A DNA stretch of 64,000 bases, taken from assembly GCA_040755975.1 (NCBI GenBank), contig JBFLZY010000007.1, positions 3,041-67,040 on the forward strand. Reading direction: 5' to 3'. Below the pieces are notes generated by a model. It had not been told where the DNA came from. It searched no databases and was given only the letters and a program-made list of their open reading frames with translations. Of this stretch, positions 9,265-58,866 are shown in pieces (position 1 is the first letter of the stretch; each line of letters begins with the position of its first letter). Origin of the DNA: Bacillota bacterium (lineage in GTDB: Bacteria > Bacillota > Desulfotomaculia > Desulfotomaculales > Nap2-2B). The position numbers and the translations under genes were made by a program.

Positions 9265-9475
9265 GGAAGGCACAAAGGCACAGAGGGACTAAGGCACAGA
9301 GGCAAAAAAGAACTGGATAGACGGGAAGAACGGGGAAATATCTGGACCTTTGTGCCTGGCAAACGAGGTTATGTCAAAACCCCGTCCCTGCGACACTCAC
9401 TTTGTGCCTTTGTGCCTGCTGCCTTTATGCCTGCTCTTGGCGGTCGTCGGTCGTCAGATGTCGGTCGTCGGAAGG
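9265..9475. repeat. Repeat-rich structured spacer: nested inverted GGCACA(A/G)AGG repeats plus a CGGTCGT tandem
   Basis: AAGGCACAAAGGCACA (9267-9282) is complementary to TTTGTGCCTTTGTGCCT (9401-9417). AGGCACAGAGG (9292-9302) is complementary to CCTTTGTGCCT (9347-9357). CGGTCGTCGGTCGTCAGATGTCGGTCGTCGG lies at about 9440-9470. Confidence 0.6.
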
Positions 9476-9509: not shown

Positions 9510-10211
9510 GTGAAATTTATCATTGATCCCATGGTTTTTGACGTTTTGCCTACCGTTTGCTTTGGTGTGGTGGTGGCGAAAGGGGTCGACAACCACGGGA
9601 AAACGGAGGAAATTAATGCTTTGCTCCGCGAGGCCGTGGCGGGAGTGCGGGAGAAATATGCGGGAGTGAACCTGAAGGAGCATCCTGCCTTCGCCTGTTA
9701 CCGGGAAGCTTTTAAAAAGCTGGGGTTCAACCCCAATAAGTTTTTAAGCTCGGTAGAGGCCCTGGTTTCCCGGGTCGTCAAAGGAGGAGAACTGCCGGAA
9801 ATCAACGATGTGGTGAACCTGGCCAATGCGGTGTCGCTGAAGTATACCCTGCCCATGGGCGCTCACGACCTCGATTCTATGGCGGGAGACATCATGGTTC
9901 GTTTTTCGAAGGAGGGAGAGCAGTTTATCCCCTTTGGCCGGACCGAACCCGAAACCGTCCCGGCGGGCGAACTGGTCTACGCCGACGAAATGCAAATCAG
10001 GACCCGGCGCTGGATTTGGAGACAGAATGAGCGGGGAAAGGTTACTGCGGAATCAAAGAATATTTTCTTTCCCATCGACGGTTTCTCCGATTGCAACCTG
10101 GATTCTGTTTTGCGGGCCCAAAAAGAACTGGCCGGTTATCTGGAAAGGTTCTGGGGGGTTCGGCCGGAACAGTTTTTCCTGGATAAAAGCAATTATTGTG
10201 CAGAATGGTAG
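9510..10211 (+). CDS. B3/B4 tRNA-binding domain protein (PheT B3/4-like)
   Basis: Track ORF 9402..10211. The likely start is GTG at 9510 (VKFIIDPMVFDVLPTVCFGVVVAKGVDNHG), downstream of GGAGGAGG. Confidence 0.65.
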   Translation: MKFIIDPMVFDVLPTVCFGVVVAKGVDNHGKTEEINALLREAVAGVREKYAGVNLKEHPAFACYREAFKKLGFNPNKFLSSVEALVSRVVKGGELPEINDVVNLANAVSLKYTLPMGAHDLDSMAGDIMVRFSKEGEQFIPFGRTEPETVPAGELVYADEMQIRTRRWIWRQNERGKVTAESKNIFFPIDGFSDCNLDSVLRAQKELAGYLERFWGVRPEQFFLDKSNYCAEW

Positions 10212-19179: not shown

Positions 19180-19311
19180 AATTGCGGGAGGACCACAGCG
19201 AAAAAGCCCACCTGAAGATTACTGAAACCGGTCACTTTGCCCGGAGCATGGCTTGTCCTTGCAGGAATACATATCCCTAATCCCTAACCCCTATTTTCTA
19301 AGGAGCTGGTT

Positions 19312-34012: not shown

Positions 34013-34110
34013 CTGGTTAAAAAATAACTAAATATTAAATCTCAAATGTTGTTTTTTTCGGGCAGGAGTGTTATACTCTGATCGATAGTTTAGCCAAACA
34101 ACCAGTCAAA

Positions 34111-34441
34111 GTGTCTGGTTACCAAGGAGTTGCTCATGGGAACGTACGTTTCCACCATAAGGAACTGAAAAACCACCGGCTTACCGTCCGTTTTGCCAGG
34201 AGCGACATATGCGAAGGGCCGGTAACGAGACACGGCGCAGGTGAGGTAAGCGAACCGGCAGTGCGAAACGCGCAGATACCACTAAGCAAAAATGCTAACA
34301 ATAATCGCTGGTTAGACCGGCATAGCTAAAAAACTAACGTTTCATGCGCATTTTGCAGCGCGTGCCTGGTTCGCTCCGAACCAAGCAGCTGTCTCGTCGG
34401 CCCCAAGCATCGGAGCGACGGCAAACGGACGGCAAGCCGGG
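34111..34441 (+). ncRNA. Large structured intergenic element, copy R1 (candidate novel RNA or repeat)
   Basis: A 456-nt gap with no credible ORF. Long-range helices: CCGGCTTACCGTCCGTTTTGCC (34176-97) with GGCAAACGGACGGCAAGCCGG (34420-40); GTGTCTGGTTACC (34111-23) with GGTAACGAGACAC (34220-32). The core at 34250-34374 is closed by GCGAACCGGCA/TGCCTGGTTCGC and is about 85% identical (by eye) to 44409-44532. Confidence 0.5.
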
Positions 34442-34468
34442 ATCTATTTTCGAGGGAGGAAGACCAGC

Positions 34469-43574: not shown

Positions 43575-44132
43575 ATGTCCGCGGAGGTTATCAAGATATC
43601 TCCCCCGTTAAGCGATGAGGATGTTGAGCGGTTAAAGATCGGTCAGCAAATTTTGATTAGCGGAAAAATCTATACCGGCCGTGATGCCGCGCATAAGAGA
43701 ATGGTCGAGTTGCTTGACCAGGGCAAAGAGCTGCCGGTGAATTTAAAAGGCCAGATCATTTATTACGTGGGCCCTACCCCCGCCAGGCCGGGCCAGGTCA
43801 TTGGTTCCGCCGGGCCCACGACCAGCGGGCGGATGGATGCTTATACCCCCCGGCTGCTCGCCGCCGGCTTAAAAGGGCTGATCGGCAAAGGCATGCGTTC
43901 GGAGGAAGTGAAAGAGGCCATGAAAAAATATAAGGCGGTTTACCTGGCCGCGGTCGGCGGAGCGGGGGCGTTAATTGCCAGGAGAATTAAGCAGGCGCGG
44001 GTGGTGGCTTATCCCGAACTCGGCGCCGAAGCCGTTTATGAGCTGGTAGTGGAAGATTTCCCGGCGATCGTGGTTAACGACGTATGGGGCGGCGACCTCT
44101 ATATAGAAGGCAGGAAGAAGTACGCGATTTAG
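43575..44132 (+). CDS. Class I fumarate hydratase, beta subunit (C-terminal domain)
   Basis: LSGKIYTGRDAAHKRM...IYYVGPTPARPG...GPTTSGRMD are typical FumA C-terminal / tartrate dehydratase beta patterns. Confidence 0.9.
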   Translation: MSAEVIKISPPLSDEDVERLKIGQQILISGKIYTGRDAAHKRMVELLDQGKELPVNLKGQIIYYVGPTPARPGQVIGSAGPTTSGRMDAYTPRLLAAGLKGLIGKGMRSEEVKEAMKKYKAVYLAAVGGAGALIARRIKQARVVAYPELGAEAVYELVVEDFPAIVVNDVWGGDLYIEGRKKYAI

Positions 44133-44156
44133 TTTTTTGCTTTCCGTGAAACTAGA

Positions 44157-44594
44157 GGGCTGGAATTTGTCCGGGTGAGCGATCCGGCACTCAGCTTAAA
44201 TTAGCTTGTTGATTGGAGTCCAATCTAAAACCGGCATGGAAAGCATAGAATAACATCACGGAAAAGCTGAGTGCCGGGCTAAAGGGCCAGTAACCAGACA
44301 CCCGGCACTCACCGGCAATCAAGTTGCTTCGATGCTAACCAGGGCCACTTGGAACAGCAGACTCAACCAAAACACAGACTACCAGTGAGTGCCGGGCAGC
44401 TGCGGCATGCGAACCGGCAGCGCGAAAAGCGCAGATACCACTAAGCAAAAGTGCTAACGGTAATAGCGTTGGACCCCGGTAAAGCTAAAAAACTAACGTT
44501 TCGCGCGCATTTTGCAGCGTTGCCTGGTTCGCTCCGCGGCAAGCCGATGTCTGGTCGACCCGGAGCAGCGGAGCGAGCCGGATAATTCCAGCCC
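44157..44594 (+). ncRNA. Large structured intergenic element, copy R2 (candidate novel RNA or repeat)
   Basis: Closing helix GGGCTGGAATTTGTCCGG (44157-74) with CCGGATAATTCCAGCCC (44578-94). Two perfect 12-bp hairpins: 44184-95/44266-77 and 44301-12/44385-96. The conserved core is at 44409-44532. See findings. Confidence 0.55.
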
Positions 44595-44668
44595 GATGGG
44601 AAATGATGGAAGACGCTATTTTCAGGGGAGCTTAAGGTTTTCTAATCTTTGCAAAGGAGTCAGATGCG

Positions 44669-50420: not shown

Positions 50421-50612
50421 TGCGAACGCCAGGAGGGAAGATAATTTTCTTATTTGCGAGTGGAGCATGGCACCAATAAGGATGAGTGCCGGGTCAGAAG
50501 CGAGCCGTAGTGCGCCTCTTAAGCGCAAGCCGGGTGAGCGGGTGACCCGGCACTCTCTGATTGCCTTTTCCCTTCTCATCACGGATAATCAAGAAAAAGA
50601 ATTATCTTTTCA
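50421..50612 (+). ncRNA. Structured intergenic element, copy R4 (related to R2)
   Basis: TGCGAACGCCAGG at the 5' end. Closing helix AAGATAATT (50438-46) with AATTATCTT (50600-08). Perfect 12-bp hairpin GAGTGCCGGGTC (50484-95) with GACCCGGCACTC (50544-55). The hairpin encloses AGCGAGCCG and CCGGGTGAGCG motifs shared with R2. Confidence 0.45.
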
Positions 50613-58450: not shown

Positions 58451-58472
58451 ATAAATTAAGGTATAAAAAGCA

Positions 58473-58488
58473 AAGAGGCACAGAGGCG
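58473..58488 (+). repeat. CACAGAG-type dispersed repeat, short copy e
   Basis: AAAGAGGCACAGAGGCGG lies about 20 nt after the pstS stop. Confidence 0.4.
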
Positions 58489-58754
58489 GTCAGTAGGAAA
58501 AAGATAAATAGGGAAGGGTAGAAGCAGGTAATGTAGAAAAATACCGATTTCCAGAGGAGTTCCCCATGACGAACTTACGTTCACTCCATAATGAATGAAA
58601 ATAGGTGCGATCTTTGCTATACTACCGTCAAGCCAAACTGCCGCGAAAGGGTCGGTTTTCCACTGGGGCCTGGAAAGCCCGTTGAGGAGTTTGACCCTGA
58701 GCGCTGAGCGCCTTGTAGGCACCGTTAATTGTTGCTACCGGTAAGGTAAGCACG

Positions 58755-58781
58755 TAAGTTAAGTGCCAGGCACTTAACTTA
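58755..58781. repeat. Perfect 13+1+13 palindrome in the pstS-pstC spacer
   Basis: TAAGTTAAGTGCC-A-GGCACTTAACTTA. Confidence 0.6.
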
Positions 58782-58825
58782 ATGGCAGAAAGCTATTTTC
58801 AAGGGAGATAAATTACGGCTGAAGT

Positions 58826-58866
58826 GCCTGGTAATTAGAAAATCACCAGGCCACCTTTGTTTTTTA
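58826..58866 (+). terminator. Terminator/attenuator-like hairpin immediately upstream of the pstC RBS
   Basis: GCCTGGT (58826-32) pairs with ACCAGGC (58845-51), followed by CACCTTTGTTTTTT. Confidence 0.45.

What the first reader, a model, noticed from the sequence alone, without database searches (positions are those of the whole stretch)
44157..44594. About 440-nt multi-helix structured element inside the propionate (mmc) operon, between the fumarase and Hdr/Sdh genes
The 536-nt gap between the fumarase beta stop (44132) and the HdrC-like start (44669) has no credible ORF but is densely self-complementary. (1) An 17-18-bp closing helix, GGGCTGGAATTTGTCCGG (44157-74) with CCGGATAATTCCAGCCC (44578-94). 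(2) Directly inside it, both strands carry GAGCGA (44176-81 and 44571-76). Antiparallel, these would form G.A/A.G - GC/CG - G.A/A.G, a tandem-GA internal helix. (3) Two perfect 12-bp hairpins built from the same word: CCGGCACTCAGC/GCTGAGTGCCGG (44184-95/44266-77) and CCCGGCACTCAC/GTGAGTGCCGGG (44301-12/44385-96), each with a ~70-nt loop. (4) A 124-nt core (44409-44532) closed by GCGAACCGGCA/TGCCTGGTTCGC, with an inner helix GCGAAAAGCGCA/TGCGCATTTTGC. I could not match it to any RNA class I know; T-box, cobalamin, tmRNA, RNase P, 6S and group II domain V motifs were looked for by eye. It lies inside a long co-oriented operon, so it should be transcribed. It could be a processing or stability element, a regulatory RNA, or a non-autonomous mobile element.
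Basis: seen in the sequence. Interest (0 to 1): 0.78.

Follow-up and report, generated by a model that had tools for sequence, protein, structure and literature searches.

The report
Nested mobile hairpins in operon spacer
The 440-base "structured RNA" is real sequence, but it is a recent pile-up of selfish hairpin insertions rather than a conserved regulatory RNA. Two of its hairpins belong to a widespread family that also sits inside ribosomal RNA, RNase P RNA and riboswitches, and whose larger relatives encode a small GIY-YIG nuclease.

Summary
The fold is far more stable than shuffled sequence (z -5.3), but the opposite strand folds equally well (z -5.5). No Rfam family matches.

The element is not conserved at its locus. 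Five orthologous fumarase-beta/HdrC-like junctions (76-86% protein identity) have spacers of 6-45 nt. Only the closest sister genome carries the element, and there the inner core is swapped and a third hairpin is added. A second copy of the core lies 10 kb upstream (34130-34458), before unrelated genes, and is absent from the sister genome.

The two "same-word" hairpins belong to a large family with invariant ends, CCGGCACTCA...TGAGTGCCGG. A metagenome scan returned at least 120 contigs. Of 138 hairpins in the loci held, 52 lie inside 16S or 23S rRNA, RNase P RNA or cobalamin riboswitches. Versions of about 310 nt with the same ends encode an 85-109 aa GIY-YIG (UPF0213-like) nuclease.

With the hairpins removed, the remaining skeleton folds as one long irregular hairpin.

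Best reading: a stack of hairpins inserted one inside another. It is probably co-transcribed with the operon and probably neutral, or at most an RNase processing or stability site. A dedicated riboswitch or regulatory RNA is unlikely.

The parts
44133..44668 (+). Expanded spacer (536 nt) between the fumarase beta stop (44132) and the HdrC-like Fer4 gene start (44669). It contains the whole composite.
   Evidence: ORFs and Pfam. Orthologous spacers are 6-45 nt in five more distant relatives.
44157..44174 (+). P1 5' arm, outer closing helix.
   Evidence: (I5).
44578..44594 (+). P1 3' arm.
   Evidence: (I5).
44177..44182 (+). GAGCGA word directly inside the P1 5' arm. It is a direct repeat of 44571-44576.
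   Evidence: The same pair of words is present in copy B and in L004.
44571..44576 (+). GAGCGA word directly inside the P1 3' arm.
44184..44277 (.). H1: a 94-nt ORF-less hairpin element with ends CCGGCACTCA...TGAGTGCCGG. It forms a side branch on the 5' strand of the rod.
   Evidence: I3; family membership.
44284..44300 (+). P2 5' strand, GGGCCAGTAACCAGACA.
   Evidence: One compensatory pair relative to copy B (CCAGACA/TGTCTGG versus CGAGACA/TGTCTCG).
44548..44561 (+). P2 3' strand, TGTCTGGTCGACCC.
44302..44395 (.). H2: a 94-nt ORF-less hairpin element with the same ends, plus the extra C44301-G44396 pair. It is identical to the copy in sister locus L004.
   Evidence: I2.
44409..44532 (+). The 'core': helix P3 (44409-19 / 44521-32) capped by a roughly 100-nt tip (44420-44520). 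The tip is shared with copy B but replaced by an unrelated hairpin in L004.
44616..44630 (+). CTATTTTCAGGGGAG motif 3' of the element. It is preceded by GGAAGACG, so the stretch resembles a second copy of the fumarase-beta 3' end (GGAAGAAGTACGCGATTTAG, 44113-44132).
34130..34458 (+). Copy B: a 329-nt block present here and absent from the sister genome. It has its own outer helix (34176-93 / 34423-40), the two GGAGCGAC words, and P2, P3 and tip homologous to A (34237-34418). It has no H hairpins.
   Evidence: I5.
50483..50556 (.). Small related hairpin in the sucD / methylmalonyl-CoA mutase spacer. The H end-words appear in outward order around a GCGAGCCG...CCGGGTGAGCG hairpin.

Best explanation
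The element is a lineage-specific stack of selfish hairpin insertions, one inside another, that has inflated a normally tiny intercistronic spacer.

Shown:
(a) Relatives with 76-86% identical HdrC-like protein have 6-45 nt at this junction. Only the window genome and its closest sister carry the element.
(b) Between those two genomes whole modules differ. The tip of the core is swapped and a third hairpin is present only in the sister.
(c) The P2-P3-tip unit exists as a second copy before unrelated genes, with a completely different outer helix. That 329-nt block is missing from the sister genome.
(d) H1 and H2 are exact-end members of a widespread family of roughly 80-110-nt hairpins, YCCGGCACTCA...TGAGTGCCGGR. 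These sit inside 16S and 23S rRNA, RNase P RNA and cobalamin riboswitch genes.
(e) Elements of about 310 nt with the same ends encode a UPF0213-like GIY-YIG nuclease.
(f) With H1 and H2 removed, the skeleton folds as one long irregular hairpin.

Inferred:
- The short hairpins are ORF-less derivatives mobilised in trans by the GIY-YIG nuclease, through cleavage and repair-copying at hairpin or cruciform DNA. New hairpins would land in or beside existing ones and build a branched rod.
- In the operon the composite is simply co-transcribed. Its RNA would fold into a long double-stranded rod that RNase III could cut or that could block exonucleases. Any effect on expression is a by-product, not a designed switch.
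For: - Empty sites at locus A: L007 35 nt, L008 45 nt; L137 and L138 6 nt, L139 16 nt. L136 (89% identity) has 198 nt of unrelated filler.
- Sister L004 has a 605-nt spacer with the same P1, H1 and H2, a different core tip, and an extra hairpin H3.
- Copy B is 83% identical over 184 nt. Its genes (MBL hydrolase, MurT, GatD) are unrelated to those after A. The sister L131 has the exact empty site...ACCAAGGAG|GACGACCCAGCTTG.
128 of 138 hairpins keep at least one further pair outside the 10-mer, C-G in 62% and T-A or T-G in 33%.
- 52 of 138 hairpins lie in rRNA (31), RNase P RNA (15) or cobalamin aptamers (6). Rfam confirmed the hosts.
- Some same-contig copies at different sites are clearly homologous: identity 0.73-0.97 against a background of 0.55 +/- 0.08.
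- GIY-YIG ORFs sit inside elements with identical or compensated ends. Pfam PF01541 E-values are 6e-13 and 2e-16. The nearest solved structures are UPF0213 proteins 1zg2 and 1ywl.
- Both strands fold equally well. There is no Rfam match and no promoter-like or terminator-like site.
Against: - The mobilisation mechanism is not shown. No nuclease gene lies in the 64-kb window.
- Interior similarity between short hairpins and the ends of the long elements is only marginal: 0.62-0.65 against 0.57 +/- 0.04.
- No target-site duplication is evident for H1 or H2.
- For copy B, the absence in the sister genome could be a deletion between two GGAG repeats rather than an insertion here.
- A and B keep the same architecture, with one compensatory pair, a wholly replaced outer helix and the conserved GAGCGA words. 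That is also what a selected RNA structure would look like.
- H elements are enriched in genuine structured RNAs, so the host rod could itself be an RNA with a role.
- Copy number in the source genome could not be counted. The genome is not in the genome collection, and my one scan of it returned only three chance hits.
Confidence: 0.7

Rival explanations
1. A functional cis-acting RNA: a processing, stability or translational-coupling module that the lineage has recruited. It would be transcribed within the operon, fold into the P1-P2-P3 rod, and be cut by RNase III or act as a 3'-exonuclease barrier. That would set different levels for the fumarase genes upstream and the HdrC-like/flavoprotein genes downstream.
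For: - It lies inside a co-oriented gene run with no terminator-like site.
- It is retained in two genomes.
- Copies A and B share architecture despite a replaced outer helix, and have one compensatory pair.
- The fold is very stable.
- Copy B and a related spacer at 58451-58856 also sit just before or within operons.
- Repeat hairpins acting as mRNA stabilisers are established for REP/BIME elements (my own knowledge).
Against: - It is absent from five orthologous operons that work with spacers of 6-45 nt.
- Copy B is absent from the sister genome.
- The core tip is swapped for unrelated sequence in the sister.
- There is no strand asymmetry in folding.
- Any such effect would be a side effect of insertion, not the reason the structure exists.
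Confidence: 0.17
2. A novel riboswitch or other ligand- or protein-sensing regulatory RNA of the propionate (methylmalonyl-CoA) pathway.
For: - It is large and multi-helical, with no Rfam match.
- The GAGCGA repeats could each pair with TCGCTC (44529-34), giving alternative structures (by eye).
- It is located in a metabolic operon.
Against: - It is not conserved upstream of orthologous genes.
- The second copy precedes unrelated cell-wall and competence genes.
- There is no expression platform: no terminator was found, and the HdrC-like gene's SD is about 60 nt beyond the element and unpaired with it in the MFE.
- Half of its length is made of hairpin elements that also occur in rRNA.
Confidence: 0.04
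3. A single classical MITE: one non-autonomous transposon with constant terminal inverted repeats and target-site duplications.
For: - It has a long outer inverted repeat.
- There are two copies in 64 kb.
- It shows presence/absence polymorphism.
- GGAG-type direct repeats flank copy B, and a fumarase-beta 3'-end-like repeat flanks A.
Against: - The outer helices of A and B share no sequence.
- The flanking repeats are imperfect and are SD-like sequences, so they may reflect recombination rather than transposition.
- Internal modules vary independently.
- There is no transposase, and no blastn match in phage or plasmid collections.
Confidence: 0.08

Closest known systems
Ribosomal RNA intervening sequences (IVS), e.g. 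helix 25 and helix 45 of 23S rRNA in Salmonella, Leptospira and Coxiella; 16S IVS in thermophilic clostridia
   Same: - They are short, extended stem-loops inserted at helix tips, variable between operons and species, sometimes carrying a small ORF, and regarded as selfish (PMC4990558, PMC2672173).
- The hairpin family of H1 and H2 occupies the same rRNA sites: 23S helix 25 and helix 45, 16S helix 6 and helix 44.
   Different: - The copies in this window are in an mRNA spacer, not in rRNA.
- The family has invariant 10-11-nt ends across many hosts, and also occurs in RNase P RNA and cobalamin riboswitches.
- Its ORF-bearing form encodes a GIY-YIG nuclease rather than the S23p/IVP protein.
- Excision by RNase III was not tested.
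Non-intron insertions encoding GIY-YIG proteins in rRNA genes of CPR bacteria (Tsurumaki et al. 2024, PMC11270868)
   Same: - GIY-YIG proteins are encoded by rRNA insertions that are neither group I nor group II introns.
- Most insertions lie at the top or base of stem-loops.
- Close homologues of the nuclease found here include Patescibacteria proteins.
   Different: - That paper does not describe conserved inverted ends, ORF-less hairpin derivatives, or copies outside rRNA. [quoted passage not shown]
- The hosts here include Thermoanaerobacter-like and other Bacillota.
Rickettsia palindromic elements (RPE) and organelle palindromic repeats
   Same: They are roughly 100-150-nt selfish palindromes that insert into protein genes and structural RNA genes such as tmRNA, and are tolerated because they fold out of the way. 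This rests on my own knowledge; PMC1458961 and PMC2670323 were retrieved but I did not read them.
   Different: There is no sequence relationship. RPEs are not linked to a nuclease gene with the same ends, and no nested, hairpin-within-hairpin build-up has been reported for them to my knowledge.
Modular intergenic repeats (pneumococcal BOX, enterobacterial REP/BIME/REPIN, Neisseria Correia elements)
   Same: They are modular, hairpin-forming, located in spacers within operons and co-transcribed, and can alter mRNA stability or processing (my own knowledge).
   Different: Sequences, sizes and associated enzymes differ (RAYT for REP). Those families have constant module sequences within a genome, whereas here the ends are constant and the interiors diverge.
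5S rRNA expansion segments in Peptococcaceae and Thermoanaerobacter (Stepanov & Fox 2021, PMC7812874)
   Same: They are self-paired modules of 13-109 nt inserted into a structured RNA in the same bacterial groups. The authors suggest horizontal spread.
   Different: The host RNA is different. No conserved ends or nuclease link is reported. I did not test whether those segments carry the CCGGCACTCA ends.

Membership tests
CCGGCACTCA-ended hairpin family (defined here) | Exact inverted ends CCGGCACTCA ... TGAGTGCCGG | tested here: met
   H1 at 44184-93 / 44268-77 and H2 at 44302-11 / 44386-95.
CCGGCACTCA-ended hairpin family (defined here) | Total length about 80-110 nt, with the stem continuing inward | tested here: met
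   Both are 94 nt; the family mode is 94-102 nt. Stems are 14 and 12 perfect pairs.
CCGGCACTCA-ended hairpin family (defined here) | One further Y-R pair outside the 10-mer | tested here: met
   H1 has T44183 / G44278 (a wobble pair) and H2 has C44301 / G44396. The family shows this in 128 of 138 members.
CCGGCACTCA-ended hairpin family (defined here) | Presence/absence polymorphism between close genomes | tested here: met
   H3 is present in L004 and L006 and absent at the same point in the window, where 10 nt (CGGAGCAGCG) take its place.
GIY-YIG-encoding rRNA insertion element | Encodes a GIY-YIG nuclease between the inverted ends | tested here: not met
   H1 and H2 have no ORF, and tblastn finds no GIY-YIG gene anywhere in the window. 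The ORF-bearing relatives are in L083, L057, L068 and L040 with the same ends, and in L047 and L128 with compensated ends.
rRNA intervening sequence (IVS) | Located in an rRNA helix and removed from the mature rRNA by RNase III | tested here: not met
   The window copies lie in an mRNA spacer, and Rfam finds no rRNA in the window. Excision cannot be tested with these tools.
Riboswitch / conserved cis-regulatory RNA | Conserved upstream of orthologous genes across species | tested here: not met
   It is absent from five orthologous junctions with spacers of 6-45 nt. The second copy precedes unrelated genes.
Riboswitch / conserved cis-regulatory RNA | Statistically supported covariation | tested here: inconclusive
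   Only two independent copies are available. They give 54 consensus pairs, 1 compensatory and 3 one-sided changes, and the outer helix is wholly replaced. Palindromic DNA can produce the same pattern.
Riboswitch / conserved cis-regulatory RNA | Match to a curated RNA family | tested here: not met
   Rfam 15 gathering gave 0 hits; the E-value scan up to 10 gave only miRNA and snoRNA noise.
Classical MITE | Constant terminal inverted repeats among copies | tested here: not met
   P1 of A (GGGCTGGAATTTGTCCGG) and P1 of B (CCGGCTTACCGTCCGTTT) are unrelated. Constant ends are met only at the level of the H modules.
Classical MITE | Fixed-length target-site duplication | tested here: inconclusive
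   B is flanked by AAGGAG and AGGGAG. A is flanked by two fumarase-beta 3'-end-like stretches. H1 and H2 show none.
Classical MITE | Many copies per genome | not testable with these tools
   The source genome is not in genome contigs and only 64 kb is available.

The most novel reading that the evidence does not exclude
The CCGGCACTCA-ended hairpins are the non-autonomous form of a minimal mobile element of about 310 nt that I did not find described. Its only gene is a UPF0213-type GIY-YIG nuclease. The element would target hairpin or cruciform DNA rather than a specific sequence. That would explain many 'intervening sequences' and expansion hairpins in 16S and 23S rRNA, RNase P RNA and riboswitches of Bacillota and other bacteria. 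By inserting into one another, these hairpins would also build large branched structured spacers such as this one inside operons.
Probability: 0.35. Interest if true: 0.75.

Novelty: new variant of a known kind. Interest (0 to 1): 0.5.

Why it matters
For this operon the message is cautionary. A very stable 440-nt multi-helix fold inside a metabolic operon need not be a regulatory RNA, and comparing orthologous loci settles the question quickly.

The more useful product is the hairpin family itself. It has constant 10-11-nt ends and free-running interiors, and it occupies the classic IVS and expansion sites of rRNA, RNase P RNA and cobalamin riboswitches as well as mRNA spacers. It also has an ORF-bearing form that encodes a tiny GIY-YIG nuclease.

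If the nuclease link is causal, several things follow:
- It gives a testable mechanism for how bacterial structured RNAs acquire expansion hairpins.
- It assigns a function to some of the widespread UPF0213 proteins.
- It explains artefacts in 16S-based surveys and in covariance-model searches of thermophilic and syntrophic Bacillota.

Tried and rejected
- Rfam at gathering threshold on the whole window, and at E-value up to 10 on both copies, gave nothing usable.
- The genome-contig scan with the 19-mer CAGATACCACTAAGCAAAA from the core returned three unrelated chance hits.
- blastn of copy B against the phage and plasmid collections found no match.
- An exact look-up of the window's own HdrC-like protein was not on record.
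- The sigma-70 promoter and intrinsic terminator scans found none in either spacer. By eye, TTGTTT-17-TATACT with a TG lies at 34049-34083 and is conserved in the sister; it falls below the scan's threshold.
- I checked by eye for a sigma-54 promoter in TGGTTCGCTCCG. The spacing does not fit, so I rejected it.
- nhmmer and blastn of A and B against all 130 fetched loci found the host rod only at the same locus of the sister genome.
- The viral-contig scan for the hairpin pattern gave 0 hits.
- I tested whether short hairpins are internal-deletion derivatives of the same-contig GIY-YIG elements. The signal was only marginal.
- Literature searches for the 10-mer and for a mobile hairpin shared by rRNA, RNase P and riboswitches found no description.
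- I considered tmRNA, 6S, SRP, T-box, retron ncRNA, integron attC and REP/RAYT by eye. None fits the sequence or the context.

Full report

Yes. The spacer between the fumarase beta stop (44132) and the Fer4/HdrC-like start (44669) is 536 nt and holds only 43-44 aa ORFs. All four described features are present.
- The outer helix pairs 44157-74 with 44578-94. It is 11 perfect pairs, then a one-base bulge, then 6 more pairs.
- The two GAGCGA words are at 44177-82 and 44571-76.
- Hairpin H1 is a perfect 14-bp stem at 44184-97 / 44264-77.
- Hairpin H2 is at 44301-12 / 44385-96.
- The core at 44409-44532 has its closing and inner helices as described.

The spacer folds at -207.5 kcal/mol against -171.4 +/- 6.8 for shuffles (z -5.29). 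The complementary strand does just as well (z -5.53). The self-complementarity is therefore symmetric, as in palindromic DNA, and not strand-specific.

**2. Not a known RNA.**

Rfam 15 gives no hit at gathering thresholds anywhere in the window. Scans of both copies with E-values up to 10 return only miRNA and snoRNA noise. No promoter-like or terminator-like site is found in either spacer.

**3. A second copy, in an unrelated context.**

Self-BLAST finds 34237-34418 to be 83% identical to 44396-44576. nhmmer finds no third copy in the window. I call this copy B.

Copy B lies between an ECF-transporter ATPase gene and an MBL-hydrolase/MurT/GatD/YetF/ComEA/ComEC run. Its outer helix (34176-93 / 34423-40) is entirely different in sequence from that of A but sits in the same position, just outside two GGAGCGAC words. 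B lacks H1 and H2. The alignment of A and B gives 54 consensus pairs, one of them compensatory.

**4. Orthologous loci.**

Relatives were reached through homologues of the flanking proteins.

Locus A spacers:

| Locus | HdrC-like identity | Spacer | Content |
|---|---|---|---|
| L004 (sister MAG GCA_040755215.1) | 95% | 605 nt | the element, modified |
| L136 | 89% | 198 nt | unrelated AT-rich filler |
| L137 / L138 | 86% | 6 nt | empty |
| L139 | 80% | 16 nt | empty |
| L007 | 78% | 35 nt | empty |
| L008 | 76% | 45 nt | empty |

The element is therefore confined to the closest clade. Within that clade it changes by whole modules. L004 keeps P1, H1 and H2, but its core tip is replaced by an unrelated hairpin of similar size. 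It also has a third CCGGCACTCA hairpin (H3) just before the 3' GAGCGA word, where the window has only 10 nt.

At locus B, the sister genome (L131, 93% identical MBL protein) has a 128-nt spacer with the exact empty site...ACCAAGGAG|GACGACCCAGCTTG. The window has 329 extra bases (34130-34458) flanked by AAGGAG and AGGGAG. Whether this is a gain here or a loss there cannot be decided.

**5. What H1 and H2 are.**

Re-scanning all loci held, with a wider gap of 40-120 nt, gave 138 hairpins. Their properties:
- The length mode is 94-102 nt.
- Interiors range from AT-rich to GC-rich.
- 128 of 138 have at least one more pair outside the 10-mer, C-G in 62% and T-A or T-G in 33%.
- 48% have 3 or more further pairs inward.

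The flanks place many of them inside genes for structured RNAs. Rfam confirms bacterial LSU, SSU, RNase P class A and cobalamin aptamers as hosts. By BLAST of the flanks, 52 of 138 lie in rRNA (31), RNase P RNA (15) or cobalamin riboswitches (6). The sites are the classic variable or IVS positions: 16S helix 6 and helix 44, 23S helix 25 and helix 45, and RNase P P3 and P12.

Most of the rest are in spacers or inside other palindromic repeats. No further Rfam hosts turned up.

Some same-contig copies at different sites are clearly homologous. L123 has copies in 16S and 23S at identity 0.80. L127 has two RNase P sites at 0.79. L125 scores 0.97. The between-contig background is 0.55 +/- 0.08.

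H1 and H2 meet every feature of this family.

**6. A nuclease link.**

Four contigs carry elements of about 310 nt with the same ends inside 23S rRNA. They fold as long hairpins and contain an 85-109 aa ORF. That ORF is a GIY-YIG catalytic domain (PF01541, E 6e-13 and 2e-16). Its nearest solved relatives are UPF0213 proteins 1zg2 and 1ywl.

tblastn finds the same ORF in L047 (16S helix 6) and L128 (23S). Their ends are compensated variants: CCCGCACTCA/TGAGTGCGGG and CCCGCCCTCA/TGAGGGCGGG.

Homologues include Thermoanaerobacter, Thermoanaerobacterium and Patescibacteria proteins.

GIY-YIG proteins in non-intron rRNA insertions have been noted in CPR bacteria (PMC11270868). I found no description of the conserved ends, of ORF-less derivatives, or of non-rRNA hosts.

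The idea that the short hairpins derive from, and are mobilised by, the nuclease-bearing form is an inference. It rests on the identical ends, the shared sites and the co-occurrence. Interior similarity is only marginal, and the window has no such gene.

**7. Anatomy of the composite.**

With the H hairpins removed, A, the sister copy and B each fold as one long irregular hairpin, P1-P2-P3-tip. H1 and H2 are side branches on the 5' strand. H3 in the sister is a branch on the 3' strand.

The P3 helix begins CCGGCAGC and ends TTGCCTGG. This resembles degenerate family ends, and its tip is swappable, as in the family. This last point is a by-eye observation and remains a hypothesis.

The picture is hairpins inserted into or beside earlier hairpins.

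**8. How it most likely works.**

Shown: it is a lineage-specific, modular, polymorphic set of hairpin repeats.

Inferred: it spreads at the DNA level with a structure-directed GIY-YIG nuclease supplied in trans. It is co-transcribed with the surrounding genes. Its long duplex regions may be RNase III substrates or exonuclease barriers. The downstream SD (AAGGAG, 44654-59) lies outside the element.

My weights are:
- about 0.7 for a selfish composite with no designed function
- about 0.17 for an exapted processing or stability module
- 0.08 for a single classical MITE
- 0.04 for a riboswitch-like sensor

**9. Limits.**

- Only two independent copies of the host rod exist, so covariation is weak.
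- The source genome could not be censused.
- Nothing here addresses RNA in vivo.
- Several details remain unexplained: the conserved GAGCGA words, the circularly permuted arrangement at 50483-50556 and in L092, and the recurring CTATTTTCNRGGGAG and 'S' motifs.

Noticed in passing
window 19291-19305, 34444-34458, 44616-44630, 58793-58807: The motif CTATTTTCNRGGGAG occurs four times, all on the + strand (0.11 expected by chance). The three exact matches each sit at the 3' end of a long spacer at or just before an SD; the one-mismatch match at 19291 lies early in a 628-nt spacer, ahead of a possible short ORF. It is also present in L133 (twice) and L136. A near-identical sequence lies inside the fumarase-beta 3' end at the empty site in L137 (CGCTATTTTAAAGGAG). 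It may be a shared spacer module or a recombination hot spot.
   Followed up: partly
window 34126-34172 and 58553-58600; L133 about 2815-2870 and about 2925-2975: A conserved 45-nt 'S' segment: GGAG-TTsCyC-ATG..GAACgTwCGTTc..CTCC-ATAA. It could be an SD-sequestering hairpin or a 10-14-codon mini-ORF (MGTYVSTIRN*, MTNLRSLHNE*). It forms the 5' end of the copy-B block, and it also occurs in the spacer between a PstS-like binding-protein gene and the ABC permease genes.
   Followed up: partly
window 50483-50556: In the sucD / methylmalonyl-CoA mutase spacer there is a 13-bp hairpin made of the family end-words in outward order (TGAGTGCCGGGTCA...TGACCCGGCACTC). It encloses GCGAGCCG...CCGGGTGAGCG. 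These are the same words that flank P1 of the main element, but circularly permuted. L092 (725-840) shows the same arrangement around an H2-like hairpin. This is unexplained.
   Followed up: partly
window 9268-9417 (also 58479-58492; L133 2680-2720): Inverted and tandem copies of GGCACAAAGGCACAGAGG lie in the spacer after a tRNA-editing-domain gene. This appears to be another repeat family shared with relative L133.
   Followed up: no
L083 5550-5857, L057 2698-3007, L068 2562-2872, L040 1212-1520, L047 about 489-788, L128 about 1204-1516: Elements of about 310 nt inside 23S or 16S rRNA genes have ends CCGGCACTCA (or compensated variants) and a single 85-109 aa GIY-YIG (UPF0213-like) ORF preceded by its own SD. 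These may be among the smallest nuclease-bearing mobile elements.
   Followed up: partly
L017, L026, L027, L046, L051, L053, L060, L082, L086, L126; L014, L015, L034, L043, L032, L059, L093; L025, L054, L065, L077, L125: In several metagenomes the hairpin sits within larger multi-copy repeats that have constant flanks. Examples are CCACAGATGGACACAGAC|H|GCnGATGAACACAGATGG, GATTGCCGCGTCC|H|GTCCTCGCAATGAC and GGTCGCCCC|H|GGAGGGGGCTCCTACAG. Composite repeats built around the hairpin are therefore common.
   Followed up: no
L061 8380-8569 and 9496-9785: There are two cobalamin riboswitches on one contig. One is normal length (190 nt). The other is expanded to 290 nt by a family hairpin at 9564-9659. 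This is a natural filled/empty pair for testing whether the insert affects aptamer function.
   Followed up: no
window 34049-34083: By eye, TTGTTT-17 nt-TATACT with an upstream TG, conserved in the sister genome (L131). It is a likely promoter for the MBL/MurT/GatD genes, which would put copy B in a 5' leader. It falls below the scan's threshold.
   Followed up: partly
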